Of a stretch of DNA of 64,000 nucleotides, positions 6,711 to 52,673 are shown one piece after another. The stretch is from contig NW_026862663.1 in NCBI RefSeq assembly GCF_026571515.1, positions 868,001 through 932,000 on the forward strand, written 5' to 3'. The notes beneath the pieces are model-generated. The model was not told the origin of the DNA, ran no database searches, and saw only the letters and a list, made by a program, of their open reading frames with translations. Both the position numbers and the translations under genes were made by a program. Numbering within the stretch: the stretch's first letter is position 1; each line of letters starts with the position of its first letter. The DNA is from Ruditapes philippinarum (taxonomy: Eukaryota).

Positions 6711-8121
6711 TTATATTTTAGATTGTTTAGCTTTATTTATTTCATTCATTAGTTCTTTCATGTATTGAATTTCTCTTTGAATTGATTCAACCTTTTCACG
6801 TAGAGCTTTGTTAGTGTCCGAGAGACGAACTTCCTGTTCCTGCAACGTTTCCTTTTCCTGCCTTTTCTTTTCTCGATACCGGGTGGCCGCATTCTTGTTT
6901 TGCACTTTCTTCCTTAGTCTTTTATCTGAAACTTTATGTGAATCATACGGAGAACTTTTAGACTTGTTTTTCTTACTTTTTGATTTAAGTTTTGTGAAAT
7001 CCTCACTTGACACTTGTATACTTTTAGCAGAACTTGACTGGCTGCTACTGTCACTGAAATAGCTGGTATCAATTGTGCTCATGTCTTGACAAGTATCAGA
7101 TGGGGAGGTAGGTCCTGAAGATAAAATTGATTCAACATCTGCATCACAGAAAGAACTTACACTCAGACTCTCTGTCTTAAAGTTGTCCTGTAAAAGTAAC
7201 ACTGGAGCCTCAACAGAAGAGTCAAGTGAAAAATTTTGACCAGACTGTAATGGTTGTAATTCAATAACATCACCATTGTCTAAAGAAACCTCAGGTTGAA
7301 TTAAATCTTCAAAAGAATGGATGACTTGATTGTCAACACCTCCAAGCAACATGTTGATACTATCATAGGTGGGAAAGTCTATATCAGGAACCTCAGCAAC
7401 TGGGGAGATTGCAGCTACTGCTTCCACATGAAGATCTTTCTCAACTGGCTTGAGCAAATCTAGAGATATCTCCGTCTTTGCTGGCTGTTGGCCAGTTAAC
7501 AGGGCCTTCAATATATCAAAGGCAGCCTGTTTCATCCCTTCAGGGCGAGGCTCTGATTTTTCAACTTTAATTGCGACTGGAGCATTTTCACAGCCCCTGT
7601 CAGTGTTCAGGAGGTTTTGGAAATCCACAGTTTCCATCCATTCTTCTCCAAGAGAGTCTAAAATAAAAACAGCACATTATATAAGTTGAGGTTATTGGTA
7701 TCAGAAACAATTTTTATTATGAAAATTTTCAGTCTGCTTGCCAGTTTAGGACATAACAATGATAACATTCAAGAAACTTAATACTGTTAATCAATGTGAG
7801 GACTCAGTTTGTTTTATTTGTGTTTCTCCAAGTTAAACAAATTACAAGTAACTGAAGTATAAGTATCAGATGAACAGACTGAAACTCTCAGCCCTTGTAG
7901 ATAGTGCATATCAATAAATACCAACAAAAATCATAATTACCTGCTGGAGTATCTGTAAGAAGCAAGTCCTCTAGAGACTCCTGGGTAGCTGACTGATATT
8001 TCAGACCCCCATCTAGGCCAAAATCAAGAATGCTACCCTCCGTACCCAGATCATCCACAAACAAGTCTGTTGTCAGACCCAATGGGTCCTCGAACAAATT
8101 CATTTGGTCCATGAATTCCAT
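6711..8121 (-). CDS. ATF4: ATF4/CREB2-like bZIP transcription factor, 375 aa; coding exons 8121-7941 and 7657-6711
   Basis: C-terminal bZIP DKRLRKKVQNKNAATRYREKKRQE...LREKVESIQREIQYMKELM is typical of ATF4/ATF5; N-terminal EEWMETVD motif; phase-1 GT-AG intron 7658-7940; uORF-bearing leader. Confidence 0.93.
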
Positions 8122-8650
8122 CTTGCTTTATTTCTGTCCGACTTTCAAATTGATATATGGCAATTGCCAGGAATAGGAAATGGTGAAAAGACCTGCAAAA
8201 TACAAGGAGAGTCTCGTTAACAAGGGAAGCACACTATTCTGCCAGCGGACATTAAATAATATACACAAAGAAACATTTCATTTTAGAAGGAATCAGTCAT
8301 TTTTATATAGTATTTTCATTAAAATGACCATTATACTTGAACATGTTTTTTAATGTCTTCTGTGTGATTTTCATTCACGCTTTCAAGGACAAATTTATAT
8401 TTCCTTGAGGAGATAATCAACAAAAATTTCATGACATATGAATATATATATATTTAGAAAACTAAAGAAACGTTAATAGATATTCAAACAAATGGATTAA
8501 CAACAACAATGTAGGAAACATTTCTAACATTTTATCATTCAATTTTATTTTCTCAAAATGGCGGGATATGCCACGTTGATAATCACAATGAATTAAATTA
8601 ATCAGTGTTAAAATAATTAATAAAATTGAATAAATTAATACTCACGCCAT
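8051..8650 (-). promoter_or_regulatory. ATF4 overlapping uORF2 (48 aa), spliced 8650-8646 + 8192-8051, overlapping the main CDS out of frame by 71 nt
   Basis: caacATGGC|gtgagt donor joined to ttttgcag|G TCT TTT CAC gives MASFHHFLFLAIAIYQFESRTEIKQDGIHGPNEFVRGPIGSDNRLVCG*. It reads through the main ATG as GAT-GGA and stops at TGA 8053-8051. Confidence 0.8.
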
Positions 8651-8711
8651 GTTGATAATGTAATTGTTCTTGGTGCAAAGCACTGCTTTTGCACAGGTTT
8701 GTTGTGAAGGT

Positions 8712-8723
8712 TCACTCGTCCAT
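8712..8723 (-). promoter_or_regulatory. ATF4 short uORF1 (Met-Asp-Glu-stop)
   Basis: aatATGGACGAGTGA in strong Kozak context, 61 nt upstream of the uORF2 ATG; same 3-codon length as mammalian ATF4 uORF1. Confidence 0.78.
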
Positions 8724-8779
8724 ATTAGCGGTAAGCGTGTTCTGTTATTCTGTATTCGTTACCTTTCAGTCATGATTTG

Positions 8780-9172
8780 CGGCAACGTGCGTAGTTTCAT
8801 CCTATTTTTGCCGAAAAAAGTTCATTTTCCTACGCAAATTATTTTTGATTTCTCTCTAAACGACTTATTTTGAGTCAATATTGCAAATTATTTCTTAGAT
8901 TTTAGTTTTTAATCAATATGATTACCTTGTGAAATGTAAAACTGCTTTAATTAACGTGTTATGAATGGAAAAGTGCAAGAATTATATCAGTAATGCGGAA
9001 GAAGAAAATATGTTATTCGGACAGAAAAATTGCGTCAGAATATTTGGCAATATGCCAAATGACGAACAACGGTCATTGGTTCATATTGACACACCTCTGA
9101 CGTCTTGTTTCTAAATAAAGAAAATGCGGAAAGACCCAAATATATCATGAACGTCCTAAATTATGACCTACA
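8780..9172. promoter_or_regulatory. Putative bidirectional promoter between ATF4 and the MtnK-like gene
   Basis: Divergent genes about 400 bp apart; locally CpG-richer; ATTGCGTCA (9029-9037), ATTGG (9075-9079), TGACGTCT (9098-9105). Transcription start sites not known. Confidence 0.55.
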
Positions 9173-12100
9173 ATGGACATTAAAAAATGGGGTGTGCTTG
9201 TGCGCGAGTGTTCTTATATTCCGGACAATTTGGTACGTTTTAAAATGAAGATATGCAAACTTTAATTAAGCATTAATTCCATTCCATAAATCAATTAAAG
9301 ATAAAATTCAGTTTAAGGGGGGGGGGGGGGGGTTATTTAAATATGACATATACATCATGCGTCGCATACATGCATATACTGTACATACATTACAGTTACA
9401 TGTATGTGTAATTCATGTATACAGTAGAGAACAGAACAGTCTTTATTTATAGTATTATATGGATGAAATTAAAAGATTTGATGTTTCAAAATAAATATGT
9501 TTAAACCAAAACATTTTGAACATTTGAGTACAATATCAAAATATCATATTTTATTAAATTTGTAATAATTTGGCAGAATGTAATTATAATTTATAAAGAC
9601 ATTTACCCTTGTCATGGTAATCTTCATGGAAAATTAAGGTGGTAGTTGTTGTTTTTATAGTTAAATATCCACCAGCAAAACTATTAAAAATTGCTGCAAT
9701 TAATTTCGTTACTTTCTCCAAACAAAGATTTTATTATAGATCTAATTATAATTATTATTACTAAAGGAATAATTTTTTTTTTGAATTAAAACAATCTTGC
9801 AACAGAATTTAGGAATGCACTTTGGAGGTAAACATATGACATACTCTATGAATAACTTTTTCATTTCACAGTTTCGTACTAAACTATGATATAGTCTCAA
9901 GCAAGTAATATATTAGTTGAAGATCGTTTGAAAGTAAAGCTTATATTTTTTTTCCAGAAGTTTTGTAGTTCTGATGAAATATGTGTAGATGAGATAGGAG
10001 ATGGGAACTTGAATGTAGTGCTACGTGTTTACACCAAAGATGGACGCAGTGTCATTGTTAAACATTCCTTGCCTTATATAAAGGTATACATTAAACAAAA
10101 GTCATGTTTATATTATATAATTTGCACATATCATTTATTTAAAGGATGTTAAAATATGTATTAATTTTAAAGCTTTCATTTCTTTGATGAACTATGATTC
10201 AATTTTTATCAACTAAATATTAACCTTCACCATGCTAAATTTGTATAATGGAACAGTTGTCCAACTTCAATTACTTGGAATCTGTATGATGGTTTTAAAA
10301 CCATTGTTGATGTTAGGGGTTTTGTTATCAAAATGCTCCATTTAGCAGCCATTAATGCATTGTAGAGACAGACCAGACAGATGAGTAGTCTGACCTGATT
10401 CTATAATGTTAGCATTTAACATGGCCATAAACATTCATAAGGTTAATATATCAGGTTAGATTTAGCGGTATTTTATGAAAATCTCTTTTTGAACATGTTA
10501 ATATAATAATATTTGACCTTCCAGTGTCTAGGAGAAGGATACCCACTTGGGGTTGCAAGAATTGATGCCGAGTACAAGGCTTTGGTAAAATTTCATCAGC
10601 TGGCTCCTGGCTGTGTCCCTCAACCATACTTTTTTAACAAGCAACACAATGCTGGTATGTTGTTTTTTTCTATCATTTAATGATTCTATTACATAAATAA
10701 ATTTTATGTTTTATTGTGCAGACAATTTATGATTAATTTCACAAATAATGTATTGTTTGAGTTTTCAACAAAATTGACAAATTGTTGTATGTTTGAAAAA
10801 AATTATGATTGCAGTTTACCTGGAAGATCTTGAAGGATATAACATTCTTCAACAGAATCTTATCAGTGGTCAGTTTGATCAGAAGATTGCAGAAAACTTG
10901 GGTCAATCTCTAGCCACAGTTCACAGTAAAACACACATAGGCAAGATTGGGGAGGATGCAATAAATGAGCTTTTTCTACATTTAGAGTAATTTCATTTTA
11001 TAACAACCTTTTGTCAGATGTAAAATCTTTTTGGTAACTATATCTAGAGAAGGTTTTCAGCTGGTTTTAAGCACTATATTAAACAGGTTTACAAACTTTA
11101 CAGACATTTGTTAAACAGATAGTATTTAACTAGTTACCATCTCTTATGTAAAGATACTTATTTTCAGTGTGCCTTTTACTAAAAATAAACATTGTAATTC
11201 CTATGGCACAGAATGGTTTGTGACCCTGAAAACTCAAAGCAGATTGTAGCAGATTGACATAAAAACTGGACACCTTTATTGGCATCCCTTCAAAAACTTT
11301 TTTTATAACATTTTCTTTGGTCTGTCTAACAGTACTTTAAGTTATAGTAAACATTTATGGCTAGGTACTGGTCATTTATATTTTATGAATATTTCAAGAA
11401 AATTGTCATACCTGTTGATATTTGAACCAAACTCCTGAATATTTAAGAGTAAATTGGCACCATTAGTCTAAGACTACACTCTTTTCTTGTTTAAAGCATC
11501 AAGCTAAGGTCCTGCCCCTTGCAAGTAAGAAAGTACAGTGGTCTATTGCCAGGTGGTATGTTGCCAAGAATGAAAATACAGTGGTCTATTGCCTTTAGTC
11601 TGTTGCCAAGTATGAAAGTTAAGTGGTCTGTTGCCATTAATCAGTCGCAAAGTATGAAAGTACAGTGGTCTATTGCCATTAATCAGTCGCCAAGTATGAA
11701 AGTTAAGTGGTCTGTTGCCATTAATCAGTCGCCAAGTATGAAAGTTAAGTGGTCTATTGCCATTAATCAGTCACCAAGTATGAAAGTACAGTGGTCTATT
11801 GCCATTGGTCTGTTGCCAAGTATGAATGTACAGTGGTCTATTGCTGTTGGTCTGTTGCCAAGTATGAAAGTACAGTGATCTGTTGCCAAGTATGAAAATT
11901 CAGTGATCTGTTGCCAGGTATGAAAATTAGTGATCTGTTGCCAAGTATAAAAGACTGTGATCTGTTGCCAAGCATGAAAATTCAGTGGCCTGTTGCCTTT
12001 AGTCTGTTGCCAAGTATGAAAGTTAAGTGGTCTGTTGCCATGCATCAGTCGCCAAGTATGAAAGTTAAGTGGTCTGTTGCCATTAATCAGTTGCCAAGTA

Positions 12101-14925
12101 TGAAAGTTAAGTGGTCTATTGCCATTAATCAGTCACCAAGTATGAAAGTACAGTGGTCTATTGCTGTTGGTCTGTTGCCAAGTATGAAAGTACAGTGATC
12201 TGTTGCCAAGTATGAAAATTCAGTGATCTGTTGCCAAGTATGAAAATTAGTGATCTGTTGCCAAGTATAAAAGACTGTGATCTGTTGCCAAGCATGAAAA
12301 TTCAGTGGCCTGTTGCCTTTAGTCTGTTGCCAAGTATGAAAGTTAAGTGGTCTGTTGCCATTAATCAGTCGCCAAGTATGAAAGTTAAGTGGTCTATTGC
12401 CATTAATCAGTCGCCAAGTATGAAAGTACAGTGGTCTATTGCCATTGGTCTGTTGCCAAGTATGAAAGTACAGTGATCTGTTGCCAAGTATGAAAATTCA
12501 GTGATCTGTTGCCAAGTATGAAAATTCAGTGATCTGTTGCCAAGTATAAAAGACTGATCTGTTGCCAAGCATGAAAATTCAGTGGCCTGTTGCCAAGTAT
12601 GAAGTACAGTGGTCTGTTGCTTTAGTATAAAACTACGATGGTCTGTTGCCAAGTAAGAAAGTACAGTGGTCTGTTGCCAAGTATGAAAGTACAGTGGTCA
12701 TTTGCCAAGTATGAAAGTACATGTACAGTGATCTGTTGCCAAGTAGGAAAATTCACTGGTCTTTTGCAAAGTATGAAGTACAGTGGTCCGTTGCTTTAGT
12801 ATAAAACTACGATAGTCTGTTGCCAAGTAAGAAAGTACAGTGTTCTGTTGCCAGTGGTCTGTTTCCAAGTATGAAAGTACAGTGGTCTATTTCCAAGTAA
12901 GAAAGTACCGTGGTCTGTTGCCAGTTGCCAAGTATGAAATACAGTGGTCTGTTGCCATTTATCAGTTGCCAAGTATGAAAGAACAGTGGTCTGTTGCCAA
13001 GTTTGAAAGTACAGTGGTCTGTTGCCATTTATCAGTTGCCAAGTATGAAAGTACAGTGGTCTGTTGCCAAGTAAGAAAGTACAGTGGTCTGTTGCCAAGT
13101 AAGAAAGTACAGTGGTCTGTTGCCAAGTATGAAAGTACAGTGGTCTGTTGCCAAGTATGAAAGTACAGTGGTCTGTTGCCATTGGTCTGTTGCCAAGTAT
13201 GAAAGTACAGTTGTCTGTTGCCAAGTAAGAAAGTACAGTGGTCTGTTACTTTGATTTACTTGTTATTGTACTTATAACAATCCTTTTTGCATGTTTTGTT
13301 GTTAAATTTCAATTAAACATTCATTTTATTAAGATTATATATTATTTTCCAGCAATTCAACAATGGTTGGGCTGACTGCTGAGTATGTTTTCACTAAACC
13401 ATTCAATAAACCGGATGATACAAACAAATGTTCACCAGAAGTATCAGAACGATTGAATTTATTGTATGAAGATGAAAATGTCCTCTCTGCTGCCAAAGCT
13501 TTGTGTAAGATCTTTACAGAGAAGAAAGAATGTTTGATACATGGTGACCTACATGCTGGTTCTATTATGGTTAAAGGGACGGACACAAGGATGTTTGATC
13601 TAGAGTTTTGTACTGTTGGTCCAGCTGGATACGACCTAGGGGTTGTACTTGCCAACTTTATTTTCACCTATCACAGACATATTAGTACAGAAGAAGACAA
13701 TGACACCCATCGAGTATTTGCTTACAAGATGGTTGATGCATGTAAAGCATTTGGTAAATATATATATTTATAATATTTACTTTTAACAATTATTATTGTA
13801 CTGTCAATAAACTAAAACATGTAATTAAGCATGGAGTTTCATAAATTATGATTTTGTTACCTAAGTGCAGTAACAAGTTAAATCCTTTTATAATTTTATA
13901 GGAGTTAACCTATTACTACACTTGGGTGACATTTTCAACCTGTGCAATGAAGTGTAGACCATCTTTTACGTATTTTCAATATTATGTTTTTTTAAGATAA
14001 TCCAAGAGTCGTAGAATATTACACTTGTTAAATTGAGCTTCATAGTCTTCTTGATAAATATGATTTGTTAAATCATAAGCGTAATTCATAATCATACTCC
14101 CCTTTTGATCTTTAGTTGTAAAAAGCACATTTTTTGTGTGAATGATACACCCTTCAATTTTAATAACTCAAATGTATTTTTACTACATTACTTCATCTAT
14201 TTACATGAACATTATTACAGTGAACATATACCTGGAGAATATGTCAGAAAGTACAGGTAACAGAGATGAGTATGTTAGCAAGCTTCTGTCTGAAACTGCA
14301 GGATTTACTGCCTGTGAAATCATTAGAAGGTAATACTCTTATTTTGTATTTATTTCAAATATAGAAATTAACACATTTGCATCTTTTTAATAAGTAAAGT
14401 AGGTAAGGTCTTTTTAGTATACAATTCATGAGTTAACATTTACCGAATAGTCAAAACAAGTACATGTAAAGGACTTTGATACTTAATAACTTATATACAT
14501 GGCCGAGTGGTTAATTTGTCAGACTAGTAATCTAAGGATTGCTGGCTGTGTGGGTTCAATCACCCTCAGGGGCAAGCAGTTGTTTCCATGAGCAAGAAAC
14601 TTAACACTAATTACTTAGTAGTGGTTGATTCCAAGAATGAATTTGAGTGTTTCAATAAGTTTATAGCTTCCTACACAATCAAACTAAATGATACAAAAAG
14701 TTTTTCCCAGTAAACATAGTATTATATGACTGTATTGCTTTATATATTACCATTTATATTTATTGTAACTGTTGCAGGTTAATTGGTGCTGCACACTATC
14801 CATACTTAGATGGCATGCCTTTAGCAGAGCAAGACTGTCTGGATACAGGGACAACACTTCTAAATGCTTATCATAGAATACATGACATTGATAAATTCCT
14901 TATCATTGCCTTTAAGCTGGTTTAA
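9173..14925 (+). CDS. mtnK: Methylthioribose kinase-like protein (MtnK/MTK family), ~381 aa; exons 9173-9232, 9958-10083, 10525-10654, 10815-10986, 13353-13753, 14221-14329, 14778-14925
   Basis: Exons join in frame (1146 nt, no internal stop). Family motifs EIGDGNLNVV, SVIVKHSLPY, YPLGVARIDAE, YLEDL, VFTKPF, LIHGDLHAGSI, DLEF, GPAGYDLG, GFTACEIIRRLIGAAH. Exon 1 is the least certain. Confidence 0.9.
10220..10447. mobile_element. Short TTAA-flanked MITE-like insertion in MtnK intron 2
   Basis: Begins ttaacctt and ends aaggttaa; a similar element lies at ~61349-61530. Confidence 0.45.
11520..13250. repeat. Complex minisatellite with ~28 bp core gccaagtatgaaagtacagtggtctgtt and ~41-43 bp extended variants, in MtnK intron 4
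   Basis: Dozens of directly visible tandem copies; a mixed block starting near 11878 recurs near 12198. Accounts for the repetitive ORFs between 11519 and 13224. Confidence 0.95.
14500..14690 (+). mobile_element. tRNA-derived SINE with CORE-like domain in MtnK intron 6
   Basis: A box tggccgagtggttaa, B-box-like gggttcaatc, CORE-like ccatgagcaagaaacttaacac, 3' end cacaatcaaactaaat. Confidence 0.7.
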
Positions 14926-17900
14926 AGACAATTATGTATAGTATTGAAACTAAATGATTCTGTGATAAACTTGTTTTAATGATTAATTTTGTAGTGTATT
15001 TACATACAATATGTATTTATCACATATCAGTTATAATTATCGTTAAAATGTATGTAAAATTGAATTATGTTCACATTCCAAACATCAAAAGTTTACATGT
15101 TTAATCAAATTTTTGAATGATGTTGAAATAGTTTCAATAAATAAAATTATAAAGCAATCAAATTTATATATACATGGATAAGATTTCATCATCCCCCAAC
15201 TTCAGTGACTACCTCTCCTCATGTGATTGTTTATTCTTAAGTCAGTGACAACTTTGCTTGTAAAAATGGATGATAGTGTCAGGATTGTCGTAACAACATT
15301 TATATTTGAAATACTAGTAATTCAAGTCTTTTACTGACTGCAAGCAATTATTAAATGAATTTTCAAGTGAGAACACTCCACTATGATAGAGGTAAATCAC
15401 ATTAAGTCTTGATTACATCTTGGCACCTGTAGGGTAAACTCCCAAGTAGTTATTGAACTAAATTTGTTTTAAGTGTTAAAAGTCACAGTGACCTTAACCT
15501 TTGACTAACAAAATGTTACCAGTATTGTGATAATTTACAAGGAAGATGGGTGTTATTTCATCTGATTTTAATAATTTACTAGTATCTGTAAATATTCTAA
15601 TTTGCTGCAGACTTTATGGAAGATCTCTTGTATTTTTTTCTAAAATTTGACAGAAGCATGCTTATTTGTGTACATCTACATCATACATCTCTCCAGCAAT
15701 TTCAATCTATTATTTTCACAGTGTCCATCCAAACATTCACAAAACTATTTCCGTCAACATTGTAATGTAAAGAGAAATACACTTCTGTGCAACATATACC
15801 TAGCTGTAATTCAGCATTATGGTCAGTGACCTTGACCTCTTTAACTAGTCATCTTTATATTCTTACTAAAATGCATACATTCAATGACGTCGTTCAATGC
15901 TTTACATATAAGTTATTGCAGTCTTGAACATACAGGTTTAACAATATATTCAATTATTTGAGAAAAACAGAAGTGATATCTATTACTGTCTAATAGCATA
16001 GCATGTTTGAAAGAAAATCAGCATTTAACAGACTTGTTCCAAGAATTTTAAGCATTTTATATGATGATGATGGTTTATTAACTGCAAGCATTCAATGTCA
16101 TTCAATGAAAAGACTCAAGAATTAAGAATATTTTTTTTTTTCGCTGCTAATCCATACCTTCTAACAAACTTTTACAGTTACAAAAATAAGCAAAACAGGT
16201 TGACCAATCTATTGTGACGGTTATTGCAACATGAAGCTATAATGGTAAAAGTTAGTTTGTACCTACAGATTAGCTGGGAAAAACCCAAACTTGCCGAGTT
16301 CCGGAACGTCCATTGTCTGCTTTAGACATTGCTTTTCAAGCATTTCCAAATAAGTCAATACTAATTTTATTATACAAGTATATTTGACATACATTAGATA
16401 AAAGTCAACAACACACTTAGAATTCAAAAATTTATTCTATAGAAAAAAATCGTCAATATTGCATTATGTTTTAGAAGTGTGTAAATAAAGAGTTTGAATA
16501 TAGTTATGTGTTTATTATGCATATTATACTGTAACCCTATAGTGAAATATATAATTCTCTGCCCTGAACATATTACCACTGTCCTTTATTTTATTGTATA
16601 ATTTTGATTAAACGAAATAATATCTTAATAAACAGATGCACTGATTAAACAAGTGGCATATCATTTTAAAGCTGTACCATATAATACTCAAGGCAGAATG
16701 ATAATAGTATATTATCAAAAGTTTATATAAAGTGCATGTAGGAATGTAAATATTAGAAAAAAGTAGTACATGTACATTAAATGATTAATGTTAAATACAA
16801 TTGTCTTTATGTCATTCACAATTAACAATATCAACATCTGGTTAACATATTTTGATATGTTATGTCACAAATATTTTTTTTTCATTCATTAAATGCTTAA
16901 TTTATAAAACATTATAAGAAATTCAACCATGAAAACTAACACTTTTAAATCAGGACTGCTTAACAGGTGTACAAAATACATCCATATAGCTGCATTATGT
17001 TTAAACTAACATGCCCACTGTTATCTCCAAGTGACCACAATAAAGATGATGTAAACTTTGTCAGTCAATAAACCTGTTCTCATTTACTAAAGGTCAGAAA
17101 CTTGCATCAACATCTAGCTAAAATATCAATCACAGGTCTCTTTCATCTGACATGTCAAGGTCAGTAAATCATACCAGAGAACAACATAATCTCTTAAACC
17201 TAAGATTGCTGACACTGAAATTCTAAATTAAAGAGCCGAGCTCAGCACCACATCTGGGCAATCTGTACTGTAACCTGACCAACTGTGAACCTTGACATCC
17301 CTTTAATTGATAATGGACTGTGCTAAATTGAAAACAAGCAAGCACAGCAATTAATACTGGAATACTCATTAATTAAATATTTTAAGTTCAATAAAATTAA
17401 CAATATGTCTAAGAACCTGCCAGGTGTGACATTTTTTTGACAATGTAAACCATTTTTTTCAATGATGCAAACTTTTCATATACCTAATTGGCCAAAATTA
17501 GCCATAATTAGTTGGCAAACTATTACTACAAATGCACTTTATCTAAATATCTACACATGTGAACATGCATGTCATATTAAATGTTTAAAATTGTTTCAGC
17601 AGAGAAATACATAACAAAACAACCAGTATCAGCAACCTGTTTGTAAACATCACATAGATAAACAAAAAATAACTGCACCAATAATGTTTAACAGAGACAT
17701 ATACATGAAAGATCAAAGTGTATAATCTATATACCAATACTATCATTAGTATAAACCTGTCAGAAGTGAACAATCTTACTTTTTTCTGCCATAAGTTGAT
17801 TATATCTAACAAAGAACCAATTGATGAATGTTCCATTACAAAATGTTTTTACTTTGACATAGTTAAAATAATTTATTTCTTGTACAAGTTTTGAATGCAT

Positions 17901-44449: not shown

Positions 44450-45740
44450 ACTGTGTCAGATATCATAAACATCGTATTAGGTATCATGTTAAAATTGTGG
44501 CATGTTGGGCAGATATTATATTAAACACTGTGGCAGGTATCATGTTTAACACTGTCAGATAACGTGCTTATACATAGTGTTACACATCATGGTGTGTCAG
44601 ATATCATTTTAGATCATATTGTTTCAGATGTTGTGTTAAATATTGTGTCAGGTATCATAAATTTTGAGTCAAATATGTTGAAAACATTGAGTCAGGTTTC
44701 TTATTCAATATTGAATCAGATATCATTTATCATAAGTTTCAGATATCATGTTAAACACTGTGTAAGATAATAAGTTGAATAATGAGTAACGTAGGATGTT
44801 AAACATTGTGTCTGATGTCATGTTAAACATTGAGTCTGATGTCATGTTAAACATTGAGTCTGATGTCATGTTAATCATTGCATCTGATGTCATGTTAAAC
44901 ATTGTGTCTGATGTCATGTTAAACATTGTGTCTGATGTCATGTTAAACATTGTGTCTGATGTCATGTTAAACATTGTGTCTGATATCATGTTAAACATTG
45001 TGTCTGATGTCATGTTAAACATTGAGTCTGATGTCATGTTAAACATTGAGTCTGATGTCATGTTAAATATTGAGTCTGATGTCATGTTAAACATTGAGTC
45101 TGATGTCATGTTAAACATTGTGTCTGATATCATGTTAAACATTGTGTCTGATGTCATGTTAAACATTGAGTCTGATGTCATGTTAAACATTGTGTCTGAT
45201 ATCATGTTAAACATTGAGTCTGATGTCATGTTAAACATTGTGTCTGATGTCATGTTAAACATTGTGTCTGATATCATGTTAAACATTGTGTCTGATGTCA
45301 TGTTAAACATTGTGTCTGATGTCATGTTAAACATTGTGTCTGATGTCATGTTAAACATTGTGTCTGATGTCATGTTAAACATTGAGTCTGATGTCATGTT
45401 TAACATTGAGTCTGATGTCATGTTAAACATTGAGTCTGATGTCATGTTAAACATTGAGTCTGATATCATGTTAAACATTGTGTCTGATGTCATGTTAAAC
45501 ATTGCATCTGATATCATGTTAAACATTAAGTCTGATGTCATGTTAAACATTGAGTCTGATGTCATGTTAAACATCGTGTTAGATATGTTGAATACAGTGC
45601 CAGGTATGATGTTAAACATAATTTCATATATCATGTTAAACATTGTGTAAGGTATAATGTTAAACATTGATGACAAATTAAATATTGTTTCAGGTAAAAT
45701 GTCAAAATTTATGTCAGATATCATGTTAACATTCTGTCAG
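44450..45740. repeat. 24 bp minisatellite (tctgatgtcatgttaaacattg[t/a]g)n; homogeneous core ~44796-45575 with decayed flanks
   Basis: More than 30 near-identical tandem units; source of the 333 aa and 284 aa repetitive ORFs. Confidence 0.96.
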
Positions 45741-51437: not shown

Positions 51438-52451
51438 TTATGAAACCTTGCTTTCACAAAGACGTCTTATCTTATTTATTCTAGCTGTTGGTAAAGATCC
51501 AATACTTTTAAACATACTATTTAAAAATTGATGGCAGTGAAGACTTTCCTGACCCACAACAGTTTCCTTGAACAAGTCTGTAACCTGACTAAAATCTGTA
51601 GTCTTTAAAATTCTATCTTTGTTATTGAGAACAATGACTAGAGACGCTCGCATCAAAATCTTTGGCCCTTCATAAAAGAGGCAGTCCCAAATACGCAAGA
51701 CGGTGTCTACTGGTAAGACATCAGCAAATAGACAGATAAACCATTTCATTCCAATAAGGCACCATGATAAACCTTGTGTTTCAAGATGATGGTAAATATC
51801 TGGTGCTTTCCATCTGACAAGTTCACCAAGAACTTCCTGGTCAAGTTTGACAGCATGCATGTCAGGGTGATAATAATCTGGTAAAATATTGTTGATTAAT
51901 GTATCCATAAGCCAGAAAACTTTTTCTTCATAATTGTCCTCACTTTTCATAACAAGCAGCAACAAGCCCACCACAAAATTCATCCCCTGACAGTAACCTA
52001 TTGTCCTGTTTCTGTGTCCTATAGCTATCAAAATATTGAATAAAGGCTTTCTCAAATTTGTAGCAGCTCGAGTGTCCGCAAAATGCTTATTGTCAGGGAA
52101 TGTTCTATGTATATCCATGTTGATGGTATCCACAAGTTCTTTATTATGTTCCATATCGAGCATTTGTTGAAATAGATGAGGATTGCTCTTCATCCTGTCA
52201 TAGGCTCCACTAAGATGCAGCCATGCTGTGGGACGTTCAGCCGATGGAATACCTTTCCTACAAAATCGTTTTACTGTTGCTGATTTGGTGACAGTTGCCT
52301 TGTTTCCGACTACTTGCTGCCACCTACTAGCTCTTCTTGTCAACACAGGAAGGTAAGACGAAGTAAATTCATTGTAAACAGTATGATCAAAATCATTAGG
52401 TCGCACAAACCCGTATCCGTCTTCTTGATTCTCAAATCTTTTCTCCGACAT
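51438..52451 (-). CDS. GRTP1: TBC-domain Rab GTPase-activating protein, GRTP1 (TBC1D6)-like, 337 aa, no coding introns
   Basis: N-terminal DGYGFVRPNDFD...YLPVLTRRASRW typical of GRTP1; catalytic fingers INMDIHRTFP (IxxDxxR) and GYCQGMNF; KWFICLFADVLPVDTVLRIWDCLFYEG. Confidence 0.9.
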   Translation of the reverse strand: MSEKRFENQEDGYGFVRPNDFDHTVYNEFTSSYLPVLTRRASRWQQVVGNKATVTKSATVKRFCRKGIPSAERPTAWLHLSGAYDRMKSNPHLFQQMLDMEHNKELVDTINMDIHRTFPDNKHFADTRAATNLRKPLFNILIAIGHRNRTIGYCQGMNFVVGLLLLVMKSEDNYEEKVFWLMDTLINNILPDYYHPDMHAVKLDQEVLGELVRWKAPDIYHHLETQGLSWCLIGMKWFICLFADVLPVDTVLRIWDCLFYEGPKILMRASLVIVLNNKDRILKTTDFSQVTDLFKETVVGQESLHCHQFLNSMFKSIGSLPTARINKIRRLCESKVS

Positions 52452-52673
52452 TTCTACATTGATTGAATCGTTGTATTAGCATCGGCAGCATCTGTTACCA
52501 TTAGTAAGGCATAACCCCGCCCACAAACCGGTGTATATAGCAATTTTTATGGAATGCAAATATTACGCGAAGTAAATATTTCGGTTGACCTCGGACTTTG
52601 GCGTTAATGATAGCAAGTGCGAGATAAAGCAAACGGACAGGAGAGAATTTCGTGTTTTTGCCTTTTTACACAC

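What the first reader, a model, noticed from the sequence alone, without database searches (positions are those of the whole stretch)
9173..14925. Intact, spliced methylthioribose kinase gene in an animal genome
Seen: seven exons form an uninterrupted ~381 aa ORF with the MtnK Gly-rich loop (GDGNLN), catalytic Lys, HGDLH, DxE (DLE) and the twin-Arg IIRRLIG motif; the W-loop reads EGYPL instead of ESWPL. Established: MTR kinase (EC 2.7.1.100) serves methionine salvage in many bacteria and plants, whereas mammals use MTA phosphorylase. Six spliceosomal introns and flanking metazoan genes argue against contamination. Inference: an old horizontal acquisition or patchy retention, giving a second salvage route, perhaps for dietary or microbial methylthioribose. 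I cannot tell from here how widespread it is in invertebrates.
Basis: partly seen in the sequence, partly recalled or inferred. Interest (0 to 1): 0.75.

Follow-up and report, generated by a model that had tools for sequence, protein, structure and literature searches.

The report
Ancient animal methylthioribose kinase, clam copy
A clam has a spliced, transcribed gene of the methylthioribose kinase family, usually described from bacteria and plants; its relatives occur in six animal phyla, so it was likely inherited from early animals, and it likely lets the animal recycle a waste sugar into methionine.

Summary
Seven exons give a 381-aa protein identical to RefSeq XP_060559703.1 (Manila clam, 'methylthioribose kinase-like'), and one RNA contig runs through all seven exons. 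All published catalytic and ribose-binding residues of MtnK are kept; the pocket for the 5-substituent is Y/Y/A instead of W/L/L. It is no clam oddity: named homologues come from 35 animal species in six phyla (sponge, molluscs, brachiopod, annelid, echinoderms, amphioxus). They form one clade that roughly follows animal phylogeny, and a mollusc-specific transfer is rejected. Animals sit in a separate MtnK subfamily with some algae/protists and Poribacteria; whether stem animals inherited it or took it from such bacteria is unresolved. The clam also has MTAP, MRI1, MtnB/APIP and ARD hits but no MtnN hit, so the kinase likely rescues free methylthioribose or 5-deoxyribose. Activity and substrate are untested. 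Databases already annotate it; I found no paper on the animal clade. This scan earlier noted catalytically dead animal copies in two other genomes. A new member of a known family, with a wider range than the papers state.

The parts
9070..9172 (+). 5' untranslated part of exon 1 (at least from 9070)
   Evidence: contig of run X8 begins at 9070, X1 at 9137; contigs cannot fix a start site
9173..9232 (+). coding exon 1 (aa 1-20), ATG start
   Evidence: joint to exon 2 in 3 of 4 runs
9958..10083 (+). exon 2 (aa 21-62): Gly-rich loop GDGNLN, K55
10525..10654 (+). exon 3 (aa 63-106): W-loop with Y68, R74, E78
10815..10986 (+). exon 4 (aa 106-163): linker region
11522..13247 (.). minisatellite in intron 4 (28- and 42-base units)
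   Evidence: spliced out
13353..13753 (+). exon 5 (aa 163-297): Y174, HGDLHAGS (D228, S233), DLEF (D245, E247, F248)
14221..14329 (+). exon 6 (aa 297-333): E329, R332 and two bases of the R333 codon
14778..14925 (+). exon 7 coding part (aa 333-381, A337, stop TAA)
14926..15400 (+). 3' untranslated region (reaches at least the end of the stretch laid)
   Evidence: X1 contig covers 14776-15400
6711..8769 (-). neighbour: bZIP gene, ATF4-like (name by my recall of the family), head to head, 5' ends about 300 bases apart or less
   Evidence: bZIP_1 hit; read ends at 8758-8769 and two introns

Best explanation
This is a single-locus, spliced and transcribed clam gene of the MtnK family whose relatives occur in six animal phyla; it was likely inherited from an early animal ancestor, and its product likely uses ATP to phosphorylate free 5-methylthioribose (and probably 5-deoxyribose), which would feed the methionine salvage pathway. 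Predicted chemistry, by alignment to the solved enzymes: the G-loop, K55 and the Mg ligands D245/E247 hold ATP; D228 polarises O1 of the alpha-ribofuranose; R332 binds O2/O3; F248, Y68, Y174 and A337 line the pocket for the 5-substituent. The product, MTR-1-phosphate, would go on through MRI1, MtnB/APIP and ARD, all with hits in this genome. Because MTAP is present and already makes MTR-1-phosphate from the animal's own MTA, the kinase would be a side entry for sugar that arrives free: from food and gut microbes, or from host nucleoside hydrolases. Shown: gene structure, splicing, family, motifs, distribution, gene tree. Inferred: activity, substrate, source of substrate, losses in other animals.
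For: Family: TIGR01767 E 1.4e-75 against 3.6e-11 for the next family; only the two MTR kinases in PDB match by sequence, E 2e-43 and 4e-38; a model of the Mercenaria orthologue (pLDDT 93) matches 2pyw at TM 0.92, choline kinases at about 0.55 or less; the Atlas model of the clam protein itself has TM 0.94 to an MtnK cluster. K55, D228, D245, E247, R332, R333 are all kept in the clam and in 25 of 31 named animal rows; the roles are from PMC2194712 (parts 1-3 of 5 read), and the family signatures S243, R82, F258 of PMC4702295 (passages) align with S233, R74, F248. Vertical descent: careful tree of 46 rows, bilaterians 98/94, animals with Sycon 91/76, lophotrochozoans 95/92; molluscs+nearest bacteria rejected; Sycon+P0051+those bacteria weakly rejected, p 0.02. 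Alternative gene models of scallops, a chiton, a snail and B. belcheri break at the clam's intron 2, 4, 5 and 6 positions, an indirect sign of shared introns. Pathway: MTAP, MRI1, MtnB, ARD exon hits. Bacteria lacking MtnK excrete MTR (PMC6302742, passages); DrdK takes MTR and 5-deoxyribose equally well (PMC6079011, passages).
Against: No assay of this protein or of any member of its subfamily was found. The clam protein scores 254.9 bits, under the TIGR01767 cut-off of 275; of 10 named animal proteins scanned, 3 pass (Lingula, Owenia, Strongylocentrotus), and 0 of 6 passed. The W-loop Trp is absent in 30 of 30 animal rows with all three pocket sites, against Trp in 99 of 127 classic rows, so the preferred 5-substituent may differ. 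No MtnN-type nucleosidase was found (0 candidates; only MTAP and PNP), so the animal has no known way to make free MTR. An IU-hydrolase motif lay in 0 of 160 bacterial MtnK loci, which gives the hydrolase idea no support. Expression was low in 1 and near zero in 1 of the two usable raw-read runs. Some animal copies have lost RR or other motifs (6 of 31 rows, of which three are gaps from incomplete gene models), so the family drifts in animals. The animal node is not starred (91/76).
Confidence: 0.6

Rival explanations
1. Same fold and ribose grip, different main substrate: the Y/Y/A subfamily phosphorylates another 5-substituted ribose (5-deoxyribose from radical-SAM enzymes, or a modified thio-, seleno- or other sugar from marine food) and serves disposal or carbon use, not methionine salvage.
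For: The aromatic/aromatic/small pocket is in 26 of 30 animal rows and 29 of 34 other subfamily rows, against 10 of 127 classic rows. MTAP makes a kinase redundant for the animal's own MTA. DrdK shows that this family acts on 5-deoxyribose. RefSeq names one Amphiura copy '5-deoxyribose kinase-like' (automatic name).
Against: PMC2194712 says the three cap residues are not strictly conserved and that bulky analogues have similar Km; 16 classic rows, one a Campylobacterales locus, also have Y/F at the first two sites. The class II aldolase hits examined were MtnB/APIP-like and (by my reading of the exon) adducin-like; 2 of 4 matches were scanned and no DrdA-like gene was identified.
Confidence: 0.28
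2. Origin rival: stem animals (or stem holozoans) took the gene horizontally from a Poribacteria-like bacterium, independently of the algae and protists that carry the same subfamily.
For: Poribacteria-type proteins are the best-scoring non-animal hits to the animal profile. Animals plus these bacteria as one clade is not rejected (p-AU 0.185). The eukaryote node has only 82/82.
Against: The best tree puts animals, an unnamed EukProt protein (P0242) and ten rows that include a pelagophyte, a picozoan and an MMETSP record together, with the bacteria outside. The bacterial side is narrow, so transfer from eukaryotes to these bacteria fits as well. Top score is not nearest kin.
Confidence: 0.25
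3. The animal protein is drifting towards a non-catalytic sugar- or nucleotide-binding role, and the clam copy is little used.
For: Diverged animal paralogues with broken motifs (P0025, P0034, P0036 lack DxE); low RNA depth; the clam branch is long against its bivalve neighbours (0.80 against 0.33-0.43); 5 of 12 exonic RNA variants change a residue; earlier scan notes report dead copies elsewhere (not checked here).
Against: Every catalytic residue is intact in the clam and the other bivalve rows, the frame is open, and none of the 5 variants touches a motif.
Confidence: 0.1
4. Recent transfer into clams or molluscs, or bacterial contamination.
For: Family described from bacteria and plants.
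Against: Six spliced introns, eukaryotic neighbours on the contig, coding GC 0.39 like the ATF4 exon, orthologues in six phyla, p-AU 1e-47.
Confidence: 0.01

Closest known systems
5-methylthioribose kinase MtnK/MTK (EC 2.7.1.100; TIGR01767; B. subtilis 2OLC/2PUN, A. thaliana 2PYW)
   Same: Fold, length, G-loop, catalytic Lys, HGD, DxE-F, twin Arg, Glu three residues before RR as in most bacterial enzymes.
   Different: About 25% identity in structure alignment; pocket caps W74/L180/L345 (plant W76/V184/V370) are Y68/Y174/A337; separate subfamily (99/100); sits in a genome with MTAP and without a detected MtnN.
5-deoxyribose kinase DrdK (B. thuringiensis; PMC6079011)
   Same: Same family; takes MTR and 5-deoxyribose with equal specificity constants, a likely model for a promiscuous enzyme.
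   Different: [quoted passage not shown]
Eukaryotic mtnAK fusions (Tetrahymena, green algae, stramenopiles; PMC2759508)
   Same: MtnK in eukaryotes outside land plants is known (passages).
   Different: Fused to MtnA and, in Tetrahymena, replacing MTAP; the clam protein stands alone. Long unnamed rows that may be such fusions fell in the classic group.
RefSeq/UniRef 'methylthioribose kinase-like' entries of invertebrates
   Same: The window's protein is one of them (XP_060559703.1).
   Different: Automatic names only; no experiment or paper found behind them.

Membership tests
MtnK (TIGR01767) | Best family match, clear of generic APH/choline kinases | tested here: met
   E 1.4e-75 against 3.6e-11; Pfam APH only 2.7e-11 for exon 5
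MtnK (TIGR01767) | Score at or above the curated equivalog cut-off (275 bits) | tested here: not met
   254.9 bits; orthologues from Lingula 294, Owenia 297, sea urchin 282 pass. So: member of the wider family, not a certified equivalog; the model was built for prokaryotes.
MtnK (TIGR01767) | G-loop GxGNxN and catalytic Lys | tested here: met
   G34-N39, K55
MtnK (TIGR01767) | HGD loop with Ser in place of the kinase Asn; DxE followed by Phe | tested here: met
   HGDLHAGS 226-233, DLEF 245-248
MtnK (TIGR01767) | Twin-Arg motif | tested here: met
   R332-R333, formed across intron 6
MtnK (TIGR01767) | W-loop Trp and two aliphatic caps (described as semi-conserved) | tested here: not met
   Y68, Y174, A337; loop itself and R74 present; the paper calls these residues not strictly conserved
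MtnK (TIGR01767) | Two-lobed MTR kinase fold | tested here: met
   TM 0.92 to 2pyw for the Mercenaria model; TM 0.94 for the Atlas model of the clam protein; predicted models
MtnK (TIGR01767) | ATP-dependent phosphorylation of MTR | not testable with these tools
   needs an assay
MtnN+MtnK salvage route | MTA nucleosidase in the same genome | tested here: inconclusive
   no hit with TIGR01704 or PF01048 beyond MTAP and PNP; exon-wise search of a fragmented assembly cannot show absence
MtnN+MtnK salvage route | Downstream MtnA, MtnB, MtnC, MtnD | tested here: inconclusive
   MtnA, MtnB and ARD exon hits found; the enolase-phosphatase was not searched; full gene models not built
DrdK / DHAP shunt | Partner class II aldolase DrdA/Ald2 | tested here: inconclusive
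   4 PF00596 matches; the 2 scanned were MtnB-like and aldolase II/adducin-like

The most novel reading that the evidence does not exclude
Early animals gained, from Poribacteria-like bacteria, a distinct MtnK subfamily that aquatic invertebrates still use to turn microbial waste sugar (methylthioribose) into methionine, an essential amino acid: a host-side scavenging route, lost in vertebrates and arthropods, that the 'bacteria and plants only' picture misses.
Probability: 0.15. Interest if true: 0.7.

Novelty: new member of a known kind. Interest (0 to 1): 0.38.

Why it matters
Papers read here describe MTR kinase as an enzyme of bacteria and plants with no mammalian homologue, and propose it as a selective antibiotic or herbicide target (PMC2194712, PMC4702295). 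An intact, conserved copy across aquatic invertebrates means the animal methionine salvage pathway likely had two entries, and that such inhibitors or toxic MTR analogues might also act on shellfish, echinoderms and sponges. It also defines an uncharacterised subfamily with a changed pocket, shared with algae and sponge symbionts, whose substrate is easy to test. The importance is moderate: the gene is already annotated, and this copy is an ordinary member of its clade.

Tried and rejected
So no operon clue to the substrate. IU-hydrolase link: 0 of 160 loci by a motif search. Direct intron comparison: no other animal genome could be read; only model break points were used, and for intron 1 and 3 these were unclear or absent. 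Runs X21 and X22 did not show an exon pattern (mostly partial, 90-95% alike reads on a repeat) and were not used as evidence. P0001 ends in intron-6-like residues, read as an incompletely spliced contig, not followed up. No land-plant row could be identified among stored proteins, so the tree lacks a confirmed plant MTK. The second Atlas search gave no result, leaving P0242 without a taxon. Supplements of the metazoan HGT compendium PMC13342648 could not be read; they may list this gene. Literature searches that found nothing on an animal MtnK: 'MTR kinase'+'metazoan' 0, 'methylthioribose'+'choanoflagellate' 0, 'methylthioribose kinase'+'bivalve' 0, +'invertebrate' 4 unrelated by listing; listings unrelated; one search listed 40 of 138 papers. 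Subscription papers are not covered. No complex prediction was run.
Full report
Observation. The product is identical at 381 of 381 positions to P0152, RefSeq XP_060559703.1, 'methylthioribose kinase-like' of Ruditapes philippinarum. Contigs from 4 of 4 runs laid skip introns 2, 3, 4 and 6, 3 of 4 skip intron 1, and the exons on either side of intron 5 are consecutive in two contigs; one contig covers all seven exons (one run is on record as RNA, three are guessed RNA). In raw reads the gene was faint: depth up to about 2.5 in one run with 3 reads across intron 4, near zero in another, and two runs were unusable. The assembly has one locus. Neighbours are eukaryotic genes: UbiA-type prenyltransferase, bZIP, SGT1, roadblock, TBC, AhpC-TSA.

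Family. TIGR01767 matches at E 1.4e-75, the next family at 3.6e-11; the score, 254.9 bits, is under the cut-off of 275, which 3 of 10 named animal proteins in that call pass. In PDB only B. subtilis and A. thaliana MTR kinase match by sequence. An AlphaFold model of the Mercenaria orthologue, not of the clam protein, matches 2pyw at TM 0.92. Against the roles given in PMC2194712 (parts 1-3 of 5 read) and PMC4702295 (passages), the clam keeps G34-N39, K55, R74, D228, S233, D245, E247, F248, E329, R332 and R333. The three residues that cap the methylthio group are Y68, Y174 and A337 instead of W/L/L. This pattern is in 26 of 30 animal rows and 29 of 34 other rows of the same subfamily, but in 10 of 127 classic rows (rows with a gap at a site left out, and ten unnamed or strongly diverged rows of the animal clade not counted). 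The paper calls these caps not strictly conserved, so the change marks the clade and does not prove another substrate.

Distribution. Named homologues come from 35 animal species: 14 bivalves, 8 gastropods, a chiton, Lingula, Owenia, 6 echinoderms, 3 amphioxus and the calcareous sponge Sycon. All are aquatic.

History. A FastTree of 225 rows (rows under 250 aa left out) and a careful mixture-model tree of 46 rows chosen after it agree. Bilaterians form a clade (98/94), lophotrochozoans one within it (95/92), and Sycon with an unnamed row P0051 joins them (91/76, not starred). Animals lie in a subfamily (99/100) apart from Bacillus- and Rhizobium-type MtnK. It also holds an unnamed EukProt protein, ten rows that include a pelagophyte, a picozoan and an MMETSP record (the other seven are unnamed), and six rows around Candidatus Poribacteria (one named in this tree). 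Molluscs plus these bacteria is rejected (p-AU 1e-47), Sycon plus them weakly (0.02), all animals plus them not (0.185). Alternative gene models break where the clam has introns: scallops and chiton at intron 2, a snail at 4 and 5, B. belcheri at 5, chiton at 6; this is indirect support for shared introns. So descent from at least the bilaterian ancestor is well supported, from the animal ancestor likely, and the deeper origin is open. No confirmed land-plant sequence was in the trees.

Pathway. The genome has exon hits for MTAP, MRI1/MtnA, MtnB/APIP and ARD, none for MtnN (PF01048 gave only MTAP and PNP), and IU-type nucleoside hydrolases on three contigs. With MTAP present the kinase is not needed for the animal's own MTA. 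The likeliest use is a side entry for free sugar. Bacteria without MtnK excrete MTR (PMC6302742, passages), which a filter feeder would meet; this link is inference. Host hydrolases are a second possible source, without support: 0 of 160 bacterial MtnK loci showed the hydrolase motif. DrdK shows that the family takes 5-deoxyribose as well as MTR (PMC6079011, passages).

Novelty. MtnK outside bacteria and land plants is known for ciliates and algae (PMC2759508, passages) and named for trypanosomatids in a review (PMC6027508, passages). PMC1821047 (passages) added nothing. Ten searches of the held library found no paper on an animal MtnK (listings only), and the supplements of an HGT compendium could not be read. 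Databases already name these proteins. The scan earlier noted dead animal copies in two other genomes; I did not check those genomes, though some paralogues seen here also lack motifs. Verdict: real gene, right family, ordinary within its clade; a new member of a known kind whose interest lies in the unreported range and the untested subfamily.

Noticed in passing
window 6711-8769 (-) and 8770-9172: The ATF4-like gene lies head to head with the kinase gene. Its spliced leader has a 3-codon upstream frame and a 48-codon one that overlaps the main start out of frame, the arrangement I recall for mammalian ATF4. A TGACGTC site lies at 9098, one of 4 in the window. ATF4 answers amino-acid starvation (recalled) and MtnK is starvation-induced in B. 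subtilis (title seen); co-regulation is untested and RNA levels differ more than a hundredfold.
   Followed up: partly
window 11522-13247: Minisatellite of 28- and 42-base units fills most of intron 4.
   Followed up: partly
window about 14500-14690: Dispersed repeat in intron 6: many reads and contigs from elsewhere pile up with loose ends; by eye it has tRNA-like A and B boxes, so possibly a SINE.
   Followed up: no
window about 44500-45740: Tandem repeat giving long open repetitive frames on both strands.
   Followed up: no
window 51441-52475 (-): A 345-codon open stretch with a whole Rab-GAP TBC domain in one exon.
   Followed up: no
proteins P0025, P0034, P0036, P0237, P0240, P0249: Diverged animal copies: three Haliotis rows lack DxE (two also the G-loop); Acanthaster, Amphiura and Batillaria rows lack the twin Arg. 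Duplicated copies in abalones and echinoderms seem to be changing function.
   Followed up: partly
proteins P0051 and P0238: Full-length proteins called on 265 kb and 1.66 Mb contigs of metagenome assemblies that group inside the animal clade: intron-free animal genes or transfers back to bacteria.
   Followed up: no
G000 C14645, C9289, C1670: IU-type nucleoside hydrolase genes on three contigs.
   Followed up: partly
G000 C6651 and C8486: The first two MRI1 exons occur on two contigs: haplotype duplicate or second copy.
   Followed up: no
L106:1370-2986: A 539-aa open-ended protein directly follows a bacterial member of the subfamily; not identified.
   Followed up: no
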